Assembly: GCA_037142915.1 (NCBI GenBank)
Contig: JBAWZR010000001.1
Location: forward strand, 1 to 49,383
Direction: 5' to 3'
From: Candidatus Moraniibacteriota bacterium
GTDB lineage: Bacteria > Patescibacteriota > Minisyncoccia > Moranbacterales > UBA1568
Length of the DNA: 49,383 nucleotides
The translations under genes and the position numbers were made by a program. Every line of letters starts with the position of its first letter. The stretch's first letter is position 1. The notes beneath the pieces were generated by a model. That model did not search any database. It was not told the DNA's origin and worked only from the letters and a program-made list of their open reading frames with translations. Positions 16,636-19,660 of this stretch are shown here, piece by piece.

Positions 16636-16965
16636 ATGACAGGACCAAAAATACTTGCCAAAATCAAAAAGTTTTCCGCCACGTTTTTCCGTTGGTGGCT
16701 TCGTCATCAGTGGGTAGTTTTTCTTGGCGTGTGTTTTCTTGTGGTCGTTGTCGGGGTCTGGGAGGGGAATCATGAGGTGTATCTTTTTCGGTGGACGGAT
16801 GACCGAAAAATTGAGTATCGTAACGAGAATTTGAAGCTGATTCAATTCAAAGAGAGTGCTTTTCAGCAGGCATTGGATCTGGTTCACAAGAGGCAATCTG
16901 AATTTTCAGTTCAAACAGGGGGTAGTCATGATATCTTTGGTGCCGGGAAGGTTCATACTCCGTGA
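16636..16965 (+). CDS. hypothetical single-pass membrane protein (last gene of the pilus operon)
   Basis: 109-aa ORF with one TM segment (WVVFLGVCFLVVVVGVW). Same strand, 12 nt after pilO. Confidence 0.4.
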   Translation: MTGPKILAKIKKFSATFFRWWLRHQWVVFLGVCFLVVVVGVWEGNHEVYLFRWTDDRKIEYRNENLKLIQFKESAFQQALDLVHKRQSEFSVQTGGSHDIFGAGKVHTP

Positions 16966-16975
16966 TTGGCTTCTC

Positions 16976-17004
16976 TTGCGTTTTCCTCCGGCTTTTGGTA
17001 TACT
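16976..17004 (+). promoter_or_regulatory. candidate sigma70-type promoter for the tRNA cluster
   Basis: TTGCGT, 17-nt spacer, TATACT preceded by TGG (extended -10-like), about 78 nt upstream of tRNA-Ile. Sequence pattern only. Confidence 0.3.
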
Positions 17005-17081
17005 CTCCATAAGAAGGTCTGAGTGCTTTTTTATTTTGGCGAAAAGAGAGCTTTTTGGGTGAGGGTTGGTTTACCACTATC

Positions 17082-17158
17082 GGGTGATTAGCTCAGTTGG
17101 TTAGAGCGCGACACTGATAATGTCGAGGTCTGAGGTTCGAATCCTCAATCACCCACCA
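17082..17158 (+). tRNA. tRNA-Ile (anticodon GAT), CCA encoded
   Basis: Cloverleaf read by eye: acceptor GGGTGAT/ATCACCC, D arm GCTC...GAGC, anticodon arm CGACA-CTGATAA-TGTCG, T arm with GGTTCGAATCC, and 3' ACCA. Confidence 0.95.
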
Positions 17159-17183
17159 TCTGAGAGAGTAGAGACAATGTGTT

Positions 17184-17437
17184 TATATATCGCTGGGTAG
17201 AGCAGGACTCGATAAGTCAGCTCGTATAGGAACAGTTGAGAAAGTAGAATCGTTGTGTTTCAGGAAAGTATATATCGTGAGACAGAGCAGGGTCTATGGT
17301 GACAGCTCGTACGGGGACAGTATTAGAAGGAAAGTTTTGTGTTTTGTGAGAATATATATCGCGGGGTAGAGCAGGACTCGATAAGTCAGCTCGTATAGGA
17401 ACAGTTGAGAAAGTAGAATCGTTGTGTTTCAGGAAAG
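17184..17437 (+). repeat. three tandem 84-85 nt pseudo-units, each starting with TATATAT plus the 5' acceptor/D-arm sequence of the downstream tRNA-Met
   Basis: Units are 17184-17268, 17269-17352 and 17353-17437. Units 1 and 3 differ by one base as read (cgcTgggtag vs cgcGgggtag). Unit 2 is diverged. All share TATATATCG..G..AGAGCAGG...AGCTCGTA with the true tRNA at 17445. None has a matching 3' acceptor strand. Confidence 0.8.
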
Positions 17438-17444
17438 TATATAT

Positions 17445-17518
17445 CGCGGGGTAGAGCAGTCTGGCAGCTCGTCTGGCTCATAACCAGGAGGTCGTGGGTT
17501 CAAATCCCACCCCCGCAA
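17445..17518 (+). tRNA. tRNA-Met (anticodon CAT), initiator-like
   Basis: CGCGGGG...CCCCGCA acceptor with a C1/A72 mismatch (bacterial initiator hallmark). Anticodon loop CTCATAA. T arm GTGGG-TTCAAAT-CCCAC. No CCA encoded. The anticodon stem has only two of the usual three G-C pairs next to the loop. Confidence 0.9.
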
Positions 17519-17617
17519 CAAAGAGAAAAATCGAAACGGGGGAGCGAACCAACTGCTTGGTTCGCGTTGGGATTTGAAGGGGTGGCGCGTCTCGCGCGAC
17601 AACCCAGGCCTGGAGGG

Positions 17618-17636
17618 AAATCCCACCCCCGCAACA
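17618..17636 (+). repeat. 19-nt direct repeat of the tRNA-Met 3' end (copy of 17502-17520)
   Basis: AAATCCCACCCCCGCAACA occurs at 17502-17520 (T arm/acceptor of the tRNA) and again at 17618-17636, separated by 97 nt. Confidence 0.85.
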
Positions 17637-17648
17637 TTTATAGTATTT

Positions 17649-17722
17649 GGCAGGGTAGCTCAGCTGGTTAGAGCACAGCCTTCATAAGGCTGGGGTCGTG
17701 GGTCCGAGTCCCACCCCTGCTA
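17649..17722 (+). tRNA. tRNA with CAT anticodon (elongator Met or Ile2/lysidine type)
   Basis: GGCAGGG/CCCTGCT acceptor (G1-U72), D arm GCTC...GAGC, anticodon arm CAGCC-TTCATAA-GGCTG, T arm GTGGG-TCCGAGT-CCCAC. Confidence 0.9.
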
Positions 17723-17729
17723 CAAAATT

Positions 17730-19556
17730 ATGTCCGAAGAATCATCCAAGAAAAATATCACCTTCCCAGTAAGAGTGATTTTTCACTATTATTGGCAGTC
17801 AATGCGACCCTACAAGTGGCAGGTGGTTTTTACTTTTGTCGCGTATGGTTTTGCATCACTCATTGCGAATGTTTTCCAGCCACTCATATTTCGGAAAATT
17901 ATTGATGTTATTTCTTCAAATGGTATAGAAAAAATGTTGTTGGCGAACGGTTTATGGTGGTGGTTTTGGTGTTTTGTGATCGTAACAGTTATTTATCAAT
18001 GCTTCTTTCGAGTCGGGGATTTTTTTATTGTTCGTACGGAAAGTATTGTGATGAAGGATTTGGCAGATCGAGCTTTTTCTGACTTACATAGACACAGTTA
18101 TCAGTTTTTTTCCAATTCTTTTTCCGGGAGTCTGGTGGCAAAATCAAAACGATTCGTGGCGGGTTTCGAGGATTTGTACGATAGCATCATTTTCAATTTT
18201 TGGATGACTTTCGTACAAGTCGCGGGAATATTTGTCACACTTTTTGTTTTGACCCCACTCATTTCGGCATTCTTTTTCTTTTTTGTTATTGTGTATGTTT
18301 GGTTTTCTTGGTGGGTGATGATGAAGAAATCGCCTTATGATGAACAATCTTCCGAAGAAGACTCTAAATTAACTGCCAAACTTTCAGATGTACTCTCGAA
18401 TGCTTTGACGGTGAAAACATTTTCAGCCGAACAAAACGAGATAGATTCTTTTGCAGAAACGAGTAACTCATGGGAGCGAGCTCGTCGTAAAGCGTGGAAT
18501 TTTCAGAATATTGCCATCACGGGGCAGACGGTATTGCTTGGTGTGCTCGAGCTCGTGGCTGTGGGGATTTCTCTCTACTTATGGCTGAAGGGAAACATCA
18601 CTTCCGGGACAGTAGTATTGGTCCAGCTCTATGTTGGGAATCTCTTCGGTGCATTGTTCCAGTTGAATCGAGTGTTTGGACGGGTTATTCGTCGGCTTGC
18701 TGATGCGTCCGAGATGATCGAGATATTTGAGACGCCGACTGAAGTGGCGGATATTGTCGAACCGAAGAAATTGGAGAAGGTGAAGGGCGAGTTGGTGCTC
18801 AATAATCTAACATTTAAATATGCTGATGGTGCGCCGGTGTTTGAAAAGCTTTCGGTGCGATTTCGAGCGGGGGAGAAGGTCGGGATTGTCGGGTCGAGTG
18901 GCGCGGGCAAATCGACCCTGACGAAACTCTTGTTGCGATTCCTCGATCCTAATGCGGGCTCGGTGACCATTGATGGTGTGGATATCCGCGAGTTGGCGCA
19001 GGCCGACGTGCGGCGGATGATCGCCTATGTGCCTCAGGAGCCAGCACTCTTTCATCGTACTCTGCGGGAGAATATCGCCTATGCGCACCCGGAGGCATCG
19101 ATGGACGAAGTAATCCGTGTGGCGAAATTGGCTCACGCTCATGAATTCATTGAGAAGCTGTCCAATGGTTATGAGACGCTCGTGGGCGAACGCGGAGTGA
19201 AGCTCTCGGGTGGAGAGCGCCAACGGGTAGCCATCGCGCGCGCGATACTCAAAGATGCTCCAATCCTCATCCTCGACGAGGCCACGAGTGCGCTTGATAC
19301 GATCAGTGAGCAATATATCCAAGAGGCACTCGATGTCTTGATGCAAGGGCGGACGACCCTCGTGATCGCGCATCGCTTGAGCACAGTACGCAAGATGGAT
19401 CGGATCATCGTGTTTGAGGAGGGTGTTATTGTCGAGGAGGGAACACACGACGAACTTGTAGCGAGGGGAGGCGTCTATGCCGGTTTTTGGGTACGCCAGA
19501 CCAGCGGTTTTATTGACGAATTCGATGAAAGTGCTACACTGGAAATACTTGCGTAA
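17730..19556 (+). CDS. ABC transporter, fused permease/ATP-binding protein (MsbA/MdlB-type exporter)
   Basis: 608 aa with an N-terminal 6-TM-like domain. Walker A GSSGAGKSTL, signature LSGGERQRVAIARA, Walker B ILILDEATSALD. Confidence 0.9.
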   Translation: MSEESSKKNITFPVRVIFHYYWQSMRPYKWQVVFTFVAYGFASLIANVFQPLIFRKIIDVISSNGIEKMLLANGLWWWFWCFVIVTVIYQCFFRVGDFFIVRTESIVMKDLADRAFSDLHRHSYQFFSNSFSGSLVAKSKRFVAGFEDLYDSIIFNFWMTFVQVAGIFVTLFVLTPLISAFFFFFVIVYVWFSWWVMMKKSPYDEQSSEEDSKLTAKLSDVLSNALTVKTFSAEQNEIDSFAETSNSWERARRKAWNFQNIAITGQTVLLGVLELVAVGISLYLWLKGNITSGTVVLVQLYVGNLFGALFQLNRVFGRVIRRLADASEMIEIFETPTEVADIVEPKKLEKVKGELVLNNLTFKYADGAPVFEKLSVRFRAGEKVGIVGSSGAGKSTLTKLLLRFLDPNAGSVTIDGVDIRELAQADVRRMIAYVPQEPALFHRTLRENIAYAHPEASMDEVIRVAKLAHAHEFIEKLSNGYETLVGERGVKLSGGERQRVAIARAILKDAPILILDEATSALDTISEQYIQEALDVLMQGRTTLVIAHRLSTVRKMDRIIVFEEGVIVEEGTHDELVARGGVYAGFWVRQTSGFIDEFDESATLEILA

Positions 19557-19577: not shown

Positions 19578-19651
19578 GGACTGGTAGCTCAGTTGGTTAG
19601 AGCACTACCCTGTCACGGTAGGGGTCGCGAGTTCGAGTCTCGTCCAGTCCG
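19578..19651 (+). tRNA. tRNA-Asp (anticodon GTC)
   Basis: GGACTGG/CCAGTCC acceptor, anticodon arm CTACC-CTGTCAC-GGTAG, T arm GCGAG-TTCGAGT-CTCGT. Confidence 0.95.
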
Positions 19652-19660
19652 CATCGATTA

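What the first reader, a model, noticed from the sequence alone, without database searches (positions are those of the whole stretch)
17184..17444. Tandem array of three 84-85 nt pseudo-units copying the promoter-proximal TATATAT box and 5' acceptor/D-arm of the initiator-like tRNA-Met
- Each unit starts TATATATCG(C/T)G..G.AGAGCAGG...AGCTCGTA, like the real tRNA at 17445, then diverges. None can close an acceptor stem.
- Units 1 and 3 differ by a single base as read, while unit 2 is strongly diverged. The array is therefore not simple uniform decay.
- It is not CRISPR-like and has no coding potential.
- Possible explanations: repeated illegitimate recombination at the tRNA 5' end, stacked promoters or leaders, or a tRNA-half-like small RNA family.
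Basis: seen in the sequence. Interest (0 to 1): 0.6.

Follow-up and report, generated by a model that had tools for sequence, protein, structure and literature searches.

The report
Tandem dead initiator-tRNA 5' copies
Three head-to-tail dead copies of the first half of the initiator tRNA gene, each with its leader, sit in front of the working gene; they are most likely non-functional scars of the tRNA-gene duplication that is common in this ultra-small bacterium and its relatives.

Summary
The array is real: period 85, 3.3 copies, 17184-17459. Each unit consists of tRNA-fMet nt 1 to about 46, with a 13-nt D-loop insert and no anticodon loop, followed by a copy of the tRNA-Ile/tRNA-fMet spacer. 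Units 1 and 3 differ by one base; unit 2 is about 70% identical to them.

There is no tRNA or Rfam match, no ORF, no promoter-like or terminator-like site, and no unusual folding stability. The TATATAT is the leader that abuts the mature 5' end, conserved across the order. It is not a -10 box.

Context:
- At this same site, 15 of 107 genomes in the family carry a 5' tRNA-fMet fragment with a hairpin insert, then a small GIY-YIG nuclease ORF that reads into the intact tRNA.
- Five genomes carry ORF-less units of 78-85 nt.
- This genome has the ORF form at tRNA-Glu and ORF-less 5' units at tRNA-Pro and tRNA-Val.

My reading is an ORF-less, tandemly amplified relic of this hairpin-marked pseudo-tRNA class, co-transcribed and discarded (confidence about 0.55).

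One point is unexplained. The D-loop insert (RTAAGTC) is shared by three deeply diverged genera, while everything around it is of local origin.

Downstream, 17537-17636 is a folded pseudo-tRNA module resembling the E. coli tRNA-linked repeats.

The parts
17082..17158 (+). tRNA-Ile(GAT), first gene of the conserved cluster Ile-fMet-Met-(Asp)
   Evidence: ARAGORN; Rfam tRNA 74.5 bits; the same cluster order in 20 related genomes.
17159..17190 (+). Original tRNA-Ile/tRNA-fMet spacer and leader (TCTGAGAGAGTAGAGACAATGTGTTTATATAT), the source of the unit tails
   Evidence: 19/24 identical to the tail of units 1 and 3, p=0.0025 against 2000 shuffles. It starts ATCTG and ends TATATA(T/C), like the 31-nt spacer of L009.
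17191..17275 (+). Pseudo-unit 1. It has tRNA-fMet nt 1 to about 46 (one mismatch in the acceptor strand, a 13-nt D-loop insert at 17206-17218, anticodon loop deleted) followed by a spacer copy
   Evidence: alignment A1; A3; 84/85 identical to unit 3.
17276..17359 (+). Pseudo-unit 2, a decayed copy of the same unit (acceptor CGTGAGA, insert GGTCTATGGTGAC at 17291-17303)
   Evidence: 69-70% identical to units 1 and 3 over both the tRNA-derived part and the tail.
17360..17444 (+). Pseudo-unit 3, with a 5' block identical to the real tRNA (TATATATCGCGGGGTAGAGCAG) and the insert GACTCGATAAGTC at 17375-17387
   Evidence: pattern hit at 17369-17393.
17445..17519 (+). Intact initiator-type tRNA-Met(CAT), the only such gene in the genome
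   Evidence: ARAGORN; Rfam tRNA 62.7 bits with a 1:72 mismatch.
17537..17636 (+). Downstream hairpin-decorated pseudo-tRNA-fMet module. It has an acceptor-like stem CGGGGG/CCCCCG, a 9-bp hairpin P1, a T-stem TGGGATTT/AAATCCCA with hairpin P2 inside the T-loop, and it ends in an exact 19-nt copy of the tRNA 3' end (17618-17636)
   Evidence: - Exact 19-nt repeat.
- MFE -49 kcal/mol, z=-2.89.
- Homologues lie after tRNA-fMet in at least 11 related genomes; 12 of 19 predicted pairs have compensatory changes.
- The module is tandem in G062 and G076.
17649..17723 (+). Elongator-type tRNA-Met(CAT), followed 6 nt later by the ATG of an ABC-transporter gene (17730)

Best explanation
The array is a non-coding relic of local duplication of the 5' side of the initiator tRNA gene. 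It belongs to the hairpin-marked pseudo-tRNA class that in this lineage accompanies small GIY-YIG nuclease cassettes.

Proposed history:
- Step 1 (inferred): an event at the tRNA-fMet gene left a 5' fragment upstream of a regenerated intact gene. The fragment broke in the variable loop at about nt 46, carried a short hairpin insert in the D-loop, and was followed by a copy of the Ile-fMet spacer. No nuclease ORF is present, and none may ever have been.
- Step 2 (shown by the sequence relationships): the unit was duplicated head to tail through the 22-40-nt blocks it shares with the real leader and tRNA. One copy (unit 2) decayed to about 70% identity. A recent duplication or gene conversion made units 1 and 3 nearly identical.

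Today the units are most likely transcribed as part of the Ile-fMet spacer of one polycistronic precursor. They would be discarded when RNase P and the 3' processing enzymes release the tRNAs, and have no function of their own (inferred).
For: Anatomy
- The unit is tRNA nt 1 to about 46 plus a spacer copy.
- No tRNA or Rfam match, no ORF, no promoter or terminator, and folding no better than shuffles.

Same site in relatives
- 15 of 107 family genomes from four genera carry a 5' tRNA-fMet fragment with a hairpin insert, then an 85-96-aa ORF, then the intact tRNA. The two 5' blocks lie 304-360 nt apart.
- The ORFs are PF01541 GIY-YIG, E 1e-13 to 1e-16. The 14 intact ones read (the G070 frame was not recovered) run into the tRNA and stop at TAA in the anticodon loop.
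- ORF-less units of 78-85 nt occur in G000, G002, G044, G077 and G100. In G044 such a unit sits next to an ORF-bearing copy and carries the same hairpin.

Same genome
- tRNA-Glu(ttc) has a 5' fragment with a double hairpin, then a GIY-YIG ORF, then the intact tRNA.
- tRNA-Pro(cgg) and tRNA-Val(gac) have ORF-less 5' units with hairpin inserts.
- tRNA-Pro(tgg) and tRNA-Pro(cgg) have 3' fragments with the same double hairpin.
- tRNA-Ala has a relic of a GIY-YIG C-terminus just upstream.
- In all, 6 of 43 tRNAs have partial duplicates by the 15-mer scan, and the tRNA-Ala relic adds a seventh marked locus.

Local origin of each unit
- The acceptor part follows the resident tRNA: C1 here, A1 in G002, G077 and G100.
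- The tail follows the resident spacer. Only the insert is shared between genera.
Against: - No trace of a GIY-YIG ORF lies in 17159-17444. A tblastn search with the cassette ORFs read from 17 loci gives nothing there at E<=1.
- None of the four genomes with this insert type has an ORF at the site. The link to the nuclease cassettes therefore rests on architecture and context, not on homology.
- The insert is a weak 4-bp AT-rich hairpin, unlike the GC-rich hairpins of the cassettes.
- The insert is 70-77% conserved across genera whose syntenic ABC transporter is only about 50% identical. Unit length is also kept at 81-85 nt. Neither is expected of neutral junk.
- Transcription and processing were not observed.
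Confidence: 0.55

Rival explanations
1. Plain tandem duplication by replication slippage or unequal crossing-over of [spacer + 5' part of tRNA-fMet], unrelated to any nuclease or hairpin element. On this view the D-loop insert and the loss of the anticodon loop are ordinary decay.
For: - The unit tail is a copy of the local spacer.
- No ORF remnant is present.
- Units 1 and 3 look like a recent recombination product.
- E. coli has a comparable 178-bp x 3.1 array on the 3' side of tyrV without any nuclease.
Against: - The same 12-13-nt D-loop insert, ending RTAAGTC, occurs at the same position in three genera whose units are otherwise of local origin. Random decay would not produce this repeatedly.
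- The same breakpoint in the variable loop recurs.
- Many other tRNAs of this genome carry fragments with inserts placed exactly in loops.
Confidence: 0.2
2. The units are functional RNA or DNA modules. Possibilities include a 5'-half-like small RNA, a decoy that pairs with the tRNA 3' acceptor strand during precursor folding, or a protein-binding extended D-hairpin that modulates initiator tRNA supply.
For: - The D-stem and insert are conserved across deeply diverged genera, while the tails are not.
- Unit length is conserved at 81-85 nt.
- All versions can extend the D-stem with a small hairpin.
- In G077 versus G100 the unit is 80% identical while the spacer upstream of it is unalignable at 52%.
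Against: - The unit is present in only 4 of 319 genomes of the order, and in the 241-million-record metagenome collection only on three contigs whose unit matches G077's in the 160 nt compared.
- Folding z-scores are not significant.
- Unit 2 and the anticodon-arm remnants of G077, G100 and G002 are visibly decaying.
- There is no own promoter or terminator.
Confidence: 0.12
3. The copy number is an assembly artefact. Short-read assembly of a metagenome bin may have expanded or collapsed an array with 84-nt exact repeats, so the true locus has fewer or more units.
For: - Units 1 and 3 share 81 nt exactly within the units (about 90 with the flanking leader and CG), long enough to confuse small-k assembly.
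- The genome is an 88-contig draft.
Against: - Two clearly different unit types sit in a fixed order with unique junctions, and the one-base difference between units 1 and 3 argues for distinct copies.
- Homologous single units at the same place in independent assemblies (G002, G077, G100, G044) show that the feature itself is biological.
Confidence: 0.06
4. Stacked promoters: each TATATAT acts as a -10 box and gives multiple starts for tRNA-fMet.
For: An AT-rich TATATAT recurs every 85 nt. In G077 the insert plus the anticodon-loop remnant happen to give TTGGTA-17-CATAAT (read directly from the sequence).
Against: - No plus-strand promoter-like site was found in the array.
- TATATAT directly abuts the mature 5' end.
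- The same leader motif is present in relatives that have a canonical promoter further upstream.
- The G077 motif is not kept in G100, G002 or here.
Confidence: 0.03

Closest known systems
E. coli tRNA-linked repeats at tyrT-tyrV (178-bp units, rttR/RtT RNA; Egan and Landy 1978 and Rudd 1999, cited from memory)
   Same: A tandem array of about three non-coding units adjoins a tRNA gene, and each unit re-copies a terminal piece of that tRNA. I checked this here: 178 bp x 3.1 copies at 95% identity, starting in the last 19 nt of tyrV, with rttR annotated over it. No function is established for those repeats either.
   Different: - The E. coli units lie downstream and copy the 3' end (19 nt). These lie upstream and copy the leader plus the first 46 or so nt, with an insert in the D-loop.
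- There is no Rfam RtT match here.
- The true counterpart of the E. coli repeats at this locus is the downstream module at 17537-17636, not the array.
Partial tRNA genes left by integrase-mediated integration of mobile elements (attL/attR; reviewed in PMC9897764)
   Same: A truncated copy of a tRNA gene lies beside an intact one, created by a DNA-level event that keeps the tRNA functional.
   Different: - The examples described there bracket kilobases of foreign DNA.
- Here the 5' part is duplicated, only 40-45 nt of local spacer lies between the copies, no integrase is present, and the copies are in tandem.
Free-standing GIY-YIG homing endonuclease SegB in the phage T4 tRNA gene cluster (PMC2330249)
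   Same: A GIY-YIG nuclease gene is embedded among tRNA genes and acts on tRNA-gene DNA. Relatives of this genome carry GIY-YIG ORFs wedged against tRNA-fMet at exactly this site.
   Different: - No ORF is present in this array.
- From memory, SegB is a much larger protein than these 80-96-aa, catalytic-domain-only ORFs, and the SegB abstract read here mentions no duplicated tRNA fragments or hairpin inserts.
Hairpin-marked pseudo-tRNA plus mini GIY-YIG cassettes of CPR bacteria
   Same: - A 5' tRNA fragment with an insert placed in a loop lies directly upstream of an intact copy of the same tRNA.
- The same genome and the same site in relatives carry the ORF form.
   Different: The array is ORF-less, tandemly amplified three times, and marked by a short AT-rich insert instead of a GC-rich palindrome.

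Membership tests
Canonical tRNA gene (Rfam RF00005 / ARAGORN) | A cloverleaf with a closed acceptor stem, anticodon arm and T-arm, scoring above the gathering threshold | tested here: not met
   No hit in 17159-17444 with ARAGORN or with cmscan at E<=10. The units have no 3' acceptor strand, no T-arm and no anticodon loop.
tRNA-linked repeats / RtT RNA (E. coli tyrT type) | Units lie 3' of the tRNA and each contains the tRNA's last 18-19 nt | tested here: not met
   The array lies 5' of the tRNA and copies nt 1 to about 46. The E. coli array was verified as 3'-side. The downstream module at 17537-17636 does meet this feature.
tRNA-linked repeats / RtT RNA (E. coli tyrT type) | Sequence and structure match to the Rfam RtT model | tested here: not met
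   No RtT hit anywhere in 16900-17800 at E<=10.
att-site tRNA fragment from integrase-mediated integration | Direct repeats of part of the tRNA bracket an inserted element that encodes or once encoded an integrase | tested here: not met
   Between the repeats lie only 40-45 nt homologous to the local spacer. There is no ORF.
GIY-YIG / hairpin tRNA cassette (undescribed class seen in this scan) | A truncated copy of a tRNA lies directly beside an intact copy of the same tRNA | tested here: met
   Three 5' fragments lie upstream of tRNA-fMet.
GIY-YIG / hairpin tRNA cassette (undescribed class seen in this scan) | A short palindromic insert sits in a loop of the truncated copy | tested here: inconclusive
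   - The 13-nt insert lies exactly in the D-loop and forms a 4-bp hairpin, GACT-CGATA-AGTC.
- It is AT-rich and short, and in G002 the pairing is imperfect.
- The cassettes of relatives use GC-rich hairpins of 14-20 nt.
GIY-YIG / hairpin tRNA cassette (undescribed class seen in this scan) | A small GIY-YIG ORF lies between the fragment and the intact tRNA | tested here: not met
   - tblastn with the cassette ORFs read from 17 loci finds nothing in 17159-17444, and the ORF listing finds nothing.
- The feature is met at this site in 15 relatives and at tRNA-Glu of this genome.
Sigma-70 promoter stack | -35 and -10 hexamers with 16-18-nt spacing upstream of a start site | tested here: not met
   No plus-strand site in the array. 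TATATAT abuts the mature 5' end.
Stable structured small RNA | Folding energy clearly below shuffled controls, and covariation | tested here: not met
   Folding z-scores of the six units are +0.27, -0.02, -0.24, -0.58, -0.76 and -1.56. There are too few independent sequences for a covariation test.

The most novel reading that the evidence does not exclude
The shared D-loop insert (G..T.GRTAAGTC) is a small non-autonomous hairpin element, or a selected module. It enters the D-loop of the single-copy initiator tRNA gene, and its insertion is mechanistically coupled to local duplication of [leader + tRNA nt 1-46], so that an intact gene is regenerated. On this reading the array records repeated hits by such an element, possibly mobilised in trans by a mini GIY-YIG nuclease such as the one at tRNA-Glu of this genome. 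It would then be part of an undescribed mobile system that targets tRNA loops.
Probability: 0.2. Interest if true: 0.7.

Novelty: new variant of a known kind. Interest (0 to 1): 0.4.

Why it matters
- By itself the array is probably junk in the leader of an essential tRNA. It is, however, a clean 5'-side mirror image of the long-known and still unexplained tRNA-linked repeats of E. coli.
- It sits in a lineage where tRNA genes are routinely flanked by hairpin-marked fragments and tiny GIY-YIG nuclease genes.
- It shows that such fragments can persist and amplify without the nuclease gene.
- It isolates one short insert that is conserved across very distant genera while everything around it is local. 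That insert is the sort of handle needed to work out how these tRNA-gene duplications arise.
- For annotation, it warns that this stretch is neither a promoter stack nor a set of tRNA genes.

Tried and rejected
- **Promoter stack:** the scan found nothing on the plus strand, and comparison with relatives places real promoters further upstream.
- **Known RNA families:** Rfam at E<=10 gave only the three tRNAs and chance-level hits.
- **Coding:** no ORF of 40 aa or more.
- **ORF remnant in the units:**
  - tblastn with the cassette ORFs read from 17 loci gave no hit in the array.
  - A resemblance between the unit tail (..TTTCAGGAAAGTATATAT) and the 3' ends of type I ORFs (..GGTTTCGAAAGATAATTTAT) is explained by the conserved leader that every duplication carries. 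I dropped it as evidence.
- **Unit tail as a decayed T-arm and acceptor of a full tRNA copy:** rejected, because the tail matches the Ile-fMet spacer significantly.
- **Vertical descent of the unit from a family ancestor:** rejected, because the tails are unalignable between genera while the within-genome spacer and tail still align.
- **Close relatives in metagenomes:** 74 pattern hits; only three are real, and their units match G077's in the 160 nt compared.
- **G051 repeats:** these matched a loose pattern but proved to be unrelated GTCACAAGTCGAAAG-type microsatellites.
- **Derivation of the insert from the 3' half of the type II hairpin** (GGCGGACAAGCTGGCAG versus GGTTGGTAAGTCAG): suggestive by eye, but the sequences are too short to test. 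It remains a conjecture.

Full report
**What is there**

The window carries a tRNA cluster: Ile(GAT) 17082-17158, Met(CAT) 17445-17519, Met(CAT) 17649-17723 and Asp 19578-19652. The first Met tRNA has the C1xA72 mismatch of bacterial initiators.

Tandem Repeats Finder reports an array at 17184-17459 between tRNA-Ile and that tRNA, with period 85, 3.3 copies and score 352. Phased on the mature tRNA 5' end, the units are 17191-17275, 17276-17359 and 17360-17444.
- Units 1 and 3 differ by one base.
- Unit 2 is 69-70% identical to them, over both its tRNA-like part and its tail.
- The array occurs once in the 985-kb, 88-contig genome.

**Anatomy of a unit**

Aligned with the real gene (alignment A1, A3), each unit reads as follows:
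- CGCGGGGTAGAGCAG (acceptor 5' strand, nt 8-9, D-stem 5' strand and the start of the D-loop).
- A 13-nt insert, GACTCGATAAGTC, in place of TCTGGC in the D-loop.
- AGCTCGT (the D-stem 3' strand).
- A remnant of the anticodon stem with the 9-nt loop region missing, ending at about tRNA position 46 in the variable loop.
- About 40 nt of tail that ends in TATATAT.

The tail is a copy of the original Ile-fMet spacer at 17159-17190. The two are 19/24 identical, and only 0.25% of 2000 shuffles reach that score. A unit is therefore a duplicate of [spacer + first 46 or so nt of tRNA-fMet]. The left border lies just after tRNA-Ile and the right border lies in the variable loop.

**What it is not**

- Not a tRNA: ARAGORN and Infernal against all Rfam families at E<=10 find nothing in the array.
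- Not coding: the longest ORF is 38 aa.
- Not a promoter or terminator: the scan finds no plus-strand promoter-like site and no terminator-like site.
- Not a -10 box: TATATAT touches the mature 5' end. The same (T)ATATA(T/C) precedes tRNA-fMet across the order, including genomes where a canonical TTGACA-N17-TAnnnT promoter lies 13-60 nt further upstream (L003, L006, L012, L013, L014, L017). It is the 5' leader next to the RNase P site.
- Not an unusually stable RNA: the three units and their three homologues fold no better than shuffled controls, with z from +0.27 to -1.56.

**Relatives**

The cluster (Ala)-Ile-fMet-Met-Asp is conserved in the family and order, and its spacers are highly variable. 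I searched the 107 genomes of the family for the tRNA-fMet 5' block.

ORF-bearing form:
- 14 genomes have two exact copies 304-360 nt apart, and G004 has a copy with one mismatch. That is 15 genomes from four genera.
- In every case examined the layout is the same: a 5' tRNA-fMet fragment with a GC-rich hairpin insert, then a small ORF, then the intact tRNA.
- The ORFs match PF01541 GIY-YIG at E 1e-13 to 1e-16.
- They fall into two subfamilies, each with its own hairpin type.
- The 14 intact ORFs read (the G070 frame was not recovered) run into the tRNA and stop at the TAA of the anticodon loop.
- Congeneric species carry different subfamilies at the same site (G004 and G044 versus G013 and G020). 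This points to turnover.

ORF-less form:
- Units of 78-85 nt occur in G000 (three copies), G002, G044, G077 and G100.
- In G044 the ORF-less unit sits between an ORF-bearing copy and the tRNA, and it carries the same hairpin.

**The same genome**

Partial tRNA duplicates were detected at 6 of 43 tRNAs by the 15-mer scan, and the tRNA-Ala relic adds a seventh marked locus.
- tRNA-Glu(ttc) on contig C75 has a 5' fragment with a double hairpin in the anticodon loop (TCAGCCAAAGGCTGA plus CCACCCTCTGGGTGG). An 80-aa GIY-YIG ORF and then the intact tRNA follow.
- tRNA-Pro(cgg) and tRNA-Val(gac) have ORF-less 5' units of 65 and 110 nt, with TCCGCC..GGCGGA-type hairpins.
- tRNA-Pro(tgg) and tRNA-Pro(cgg) have 3' fragments with the same double hairpin in the T-loop.
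- tRNA-Ala(tgc) has a relic of a GIY-YIG C-terminus just upstream.

The fMet array is thus one instance of a genome-wide habit. The other instances include both ORF-bearing and ORF-less forms.

**The odd part**

The insert type of this array (GAGCAGG-N3-5-RTAAGTCAGCT) occurs in only 4 of 319 genomes of the order: G000, G002, G077 and G100, in three genera. In the metagenome collection it occurs only on three contigs whose unit matches G077's in the 160 nt compared. It never has an ORF.

These genera are distant. The syntenic ABC transporter is only about 50% identical in protein, and tails and spacers are unalignable between them.

Even so:
- The insert is 70-77% conserved, with RTAAGTC invariant.
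- Each unit's acceptor strand follows its own tRNA: C1 here, A1 in the others.
- Unit 3 is closer in its first 34 nt to the units of other genera (80-83%) than to unit 2 of its own genome (69%).

Neutral vertical descent does not explain this. The GC-rich hairpins show the same pattern. A 20-nt palindrome, CCTGCCTGCCGGCAGGCAGG, sits in loops of tRNA pseudo-copies in G013, G020, G065 and G076. The double hairpin of this genome marks fragments of three different tRNAs.

I therefore read the insert as another small hairpin module of this system. The link is by analogy, and selection on the unit is not excluded.

**Mechanism I commit to (confidence about 0.55)**

1. An event at the initiator tRNA gene left a hairpin-marked 5' fragment plus a leader copy upstream of a regenerated intact gene (inferred).
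2. Unequal recombination or slippage between the shared leader and 5' tRNA blocks multiplied the unit. One copy decayed, and a recent duplication or conversion produced the near-identity of units 1 and 3. The 107-nt, 95% repeat at 169-nt spacing shows this.
3. The array is now co-transcribed in the Ile-fMet spacer and removed during tRNA maturation, with no role of its own (inferred, from the lack of promoter, terminator, stable fold and conservation).

**Rivals**

- Plain slippage unrelated to any element (0.2).
- A functional RNA or decoy (0.12).
- An assembly error in copy number (0.06).
- Stacked promoters (0.03).

**Known things**

The nearest published analogue is the E. coli tRNA-linked repeat at tyrT-tyrV. 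I verified a 178-bp x 3.1 array at 95% identity that starts in the last 19 nt of tyrV and carries the rttR annotation. It is a 3'-side array; this one is a 5'-side array. No Rfam RtT match exists here.

Partial tRNA genes are otherwise attributed to integrase-mediated integration or to CRISPR activity (PMC9897764). That does not fit a 40-nt local spacer with no integrase.

Phage T4 SegB is a GIY-YIG homing endonuclease in a tRNA cluster (PMC2330249). It does not resemble these 80-96-aa ORFs in size, and it is not reported to come with duplicated tRNA fragments.

Earlier AI notes of this scan describe the GIY-YIG and hairpin tRNA cassettes in many CPR genomes and report finding no publication. 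I reached the same picture independently from the loci above. I treat those notes as agreement, not as evidence.

**Beyond the given coordinates**

Downstream of the tRNA, 17537-17636 is a hairpin-decorated pseudo-tRNA-fMet. Its parts are:
- an acceptor-like stem CGGGGG/CCCCCG;
- a 9-bp hairpin P1;
- a T-stem TGGGATTT/AAATCCCA with a second hairpin inside the T-loop;
- an exact 19-nt copy of the tRNA 3' end at 17618-17636.

It folds at -49 kcal/mol, z=-2.89. Homologues follow tRNA-fMet in at least 11 related genomes from eight or more genera and one other family. Compensatory changes occur in 12 of 19 predicted pairs. The module is tandemly repeated in G062 (2.6 copies) and G076.

The position and the copy of the 3' end fit that reading, but the Rfam model does not match.

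The working initiator tRNA gene thus sits between dead 5' pieces and a dead but well-folded copy on its 3' side.

**Verdict**

This is a real, non-coding tandem array and a new 5'-side variant of tRNA-linked partial duplications. It is probably a relic, with one unexplained conserved insert. Interest is moderate.

Noticed in passing
window 17521-17636: A folded pseudo-tRNA-fMet module lies directly after the initiator tRNA. It ends in an exact 19-nt copy of the tRNA 3' end, and its fold has z=-2.89. It is conserved with compensatory changes after tRNA-fMet in at least 11 related genomes and is tandem in G062 and G076. It resembles the E. coli tRNA-linked repeats but gives no Rfam RtT hit.
   Followed up: partly
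G000 contig C75:2001-2450 (minus strand), outside the window: tRNA-Glu(ttc) of this genome has a 5' fragment with a double hairpin (TCAGCCAAAGGCTGA plus CCACCCTCTGGGTGG) in its anticodon loop. An intact 80-aa GIY-YIG ORF and then the intact tRNA follow.
   Followed up: partly
G000 contigs C21:14050-14260, C23:7670-7860, C8:1-160, C78:~2650-2730, C54:6360-6640, C7:4480-4560: - ORF-less hairpin-marked 5' units lie before tRNA-Pro(cgg) and tRNA-Val(gac).
- 3' fragments with the same double hairpin in the T-loop lie after tRNA-Pro(tgg) and tRNA-Pro(cgg).
- A 3' duplicate lies after tRNA-Glu(ctc).
- A relic of a GIY-YIG C-terminus lies just before tRNA-Ala(tgc).
   Followed up: partly
L018 (G013), L024 (G020, three sites), L030 (G065), L033 (G076): A near-identical 20-nt perfect palindrome, CCTGCCTGCCGGCAGGCAGG, is inserted in the D-, anticodon- or T-loops of tRNA pseudo-copies (fMet, Ile, Met-like) in four genomes from three genera.
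   Followed up: no
L011, L018, L022-L024, L030-L039: - At the tRNA-fMet site the GIY-YIG ORFs fall into two subfamilies: MFDTSLPFSVYVIQ... and MYTVYALQF....
- Each subfamily has its own hairpin type.
- The intact ORFs read use the first 38 nt of the tRNA as their last 12 codons (..SGVEQSGSSLGS) and stop at the TAA of the anticodon loop.
   Followed up: partly
G000 genome-wide (e.g. C3:6985, C3:12755, C6:5998, C7:9194, C10:13289): About 18 dispersed copies of a small GC-rich hairpin, TCCGCC-N2-6-GGCGGA. Some lie inside tRNA fragments and others are nested in longer inverted repeats.
   Followed up: no
window 17723-17730: The ATG of a 608-aa ABC-transporter gene lies 6 nt after the 3' end of the elongator tRNA-Met. 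The tRNA cluster and this gene are syntenic in many relatives and are probably co-transcribed.
   Followed up: no
window 17445-17519 and relatives: The initiator tRNA has only two G:C pairs at the base of the anticodon stem (TCTGG/CCAGG). Within the family, position 1 is either C (C1xA72) or A (A1xA72).
   Followed up: no
L115-L117 (G051 contigs C76, C14, C3): Long microsatellite-like arrays of GTCACAAGTCGAAAGTGAAAAG-type units are interspersed with GCGGGGGAGAATAG. They are unrelated to tRNA fragments.
   Followed up: no
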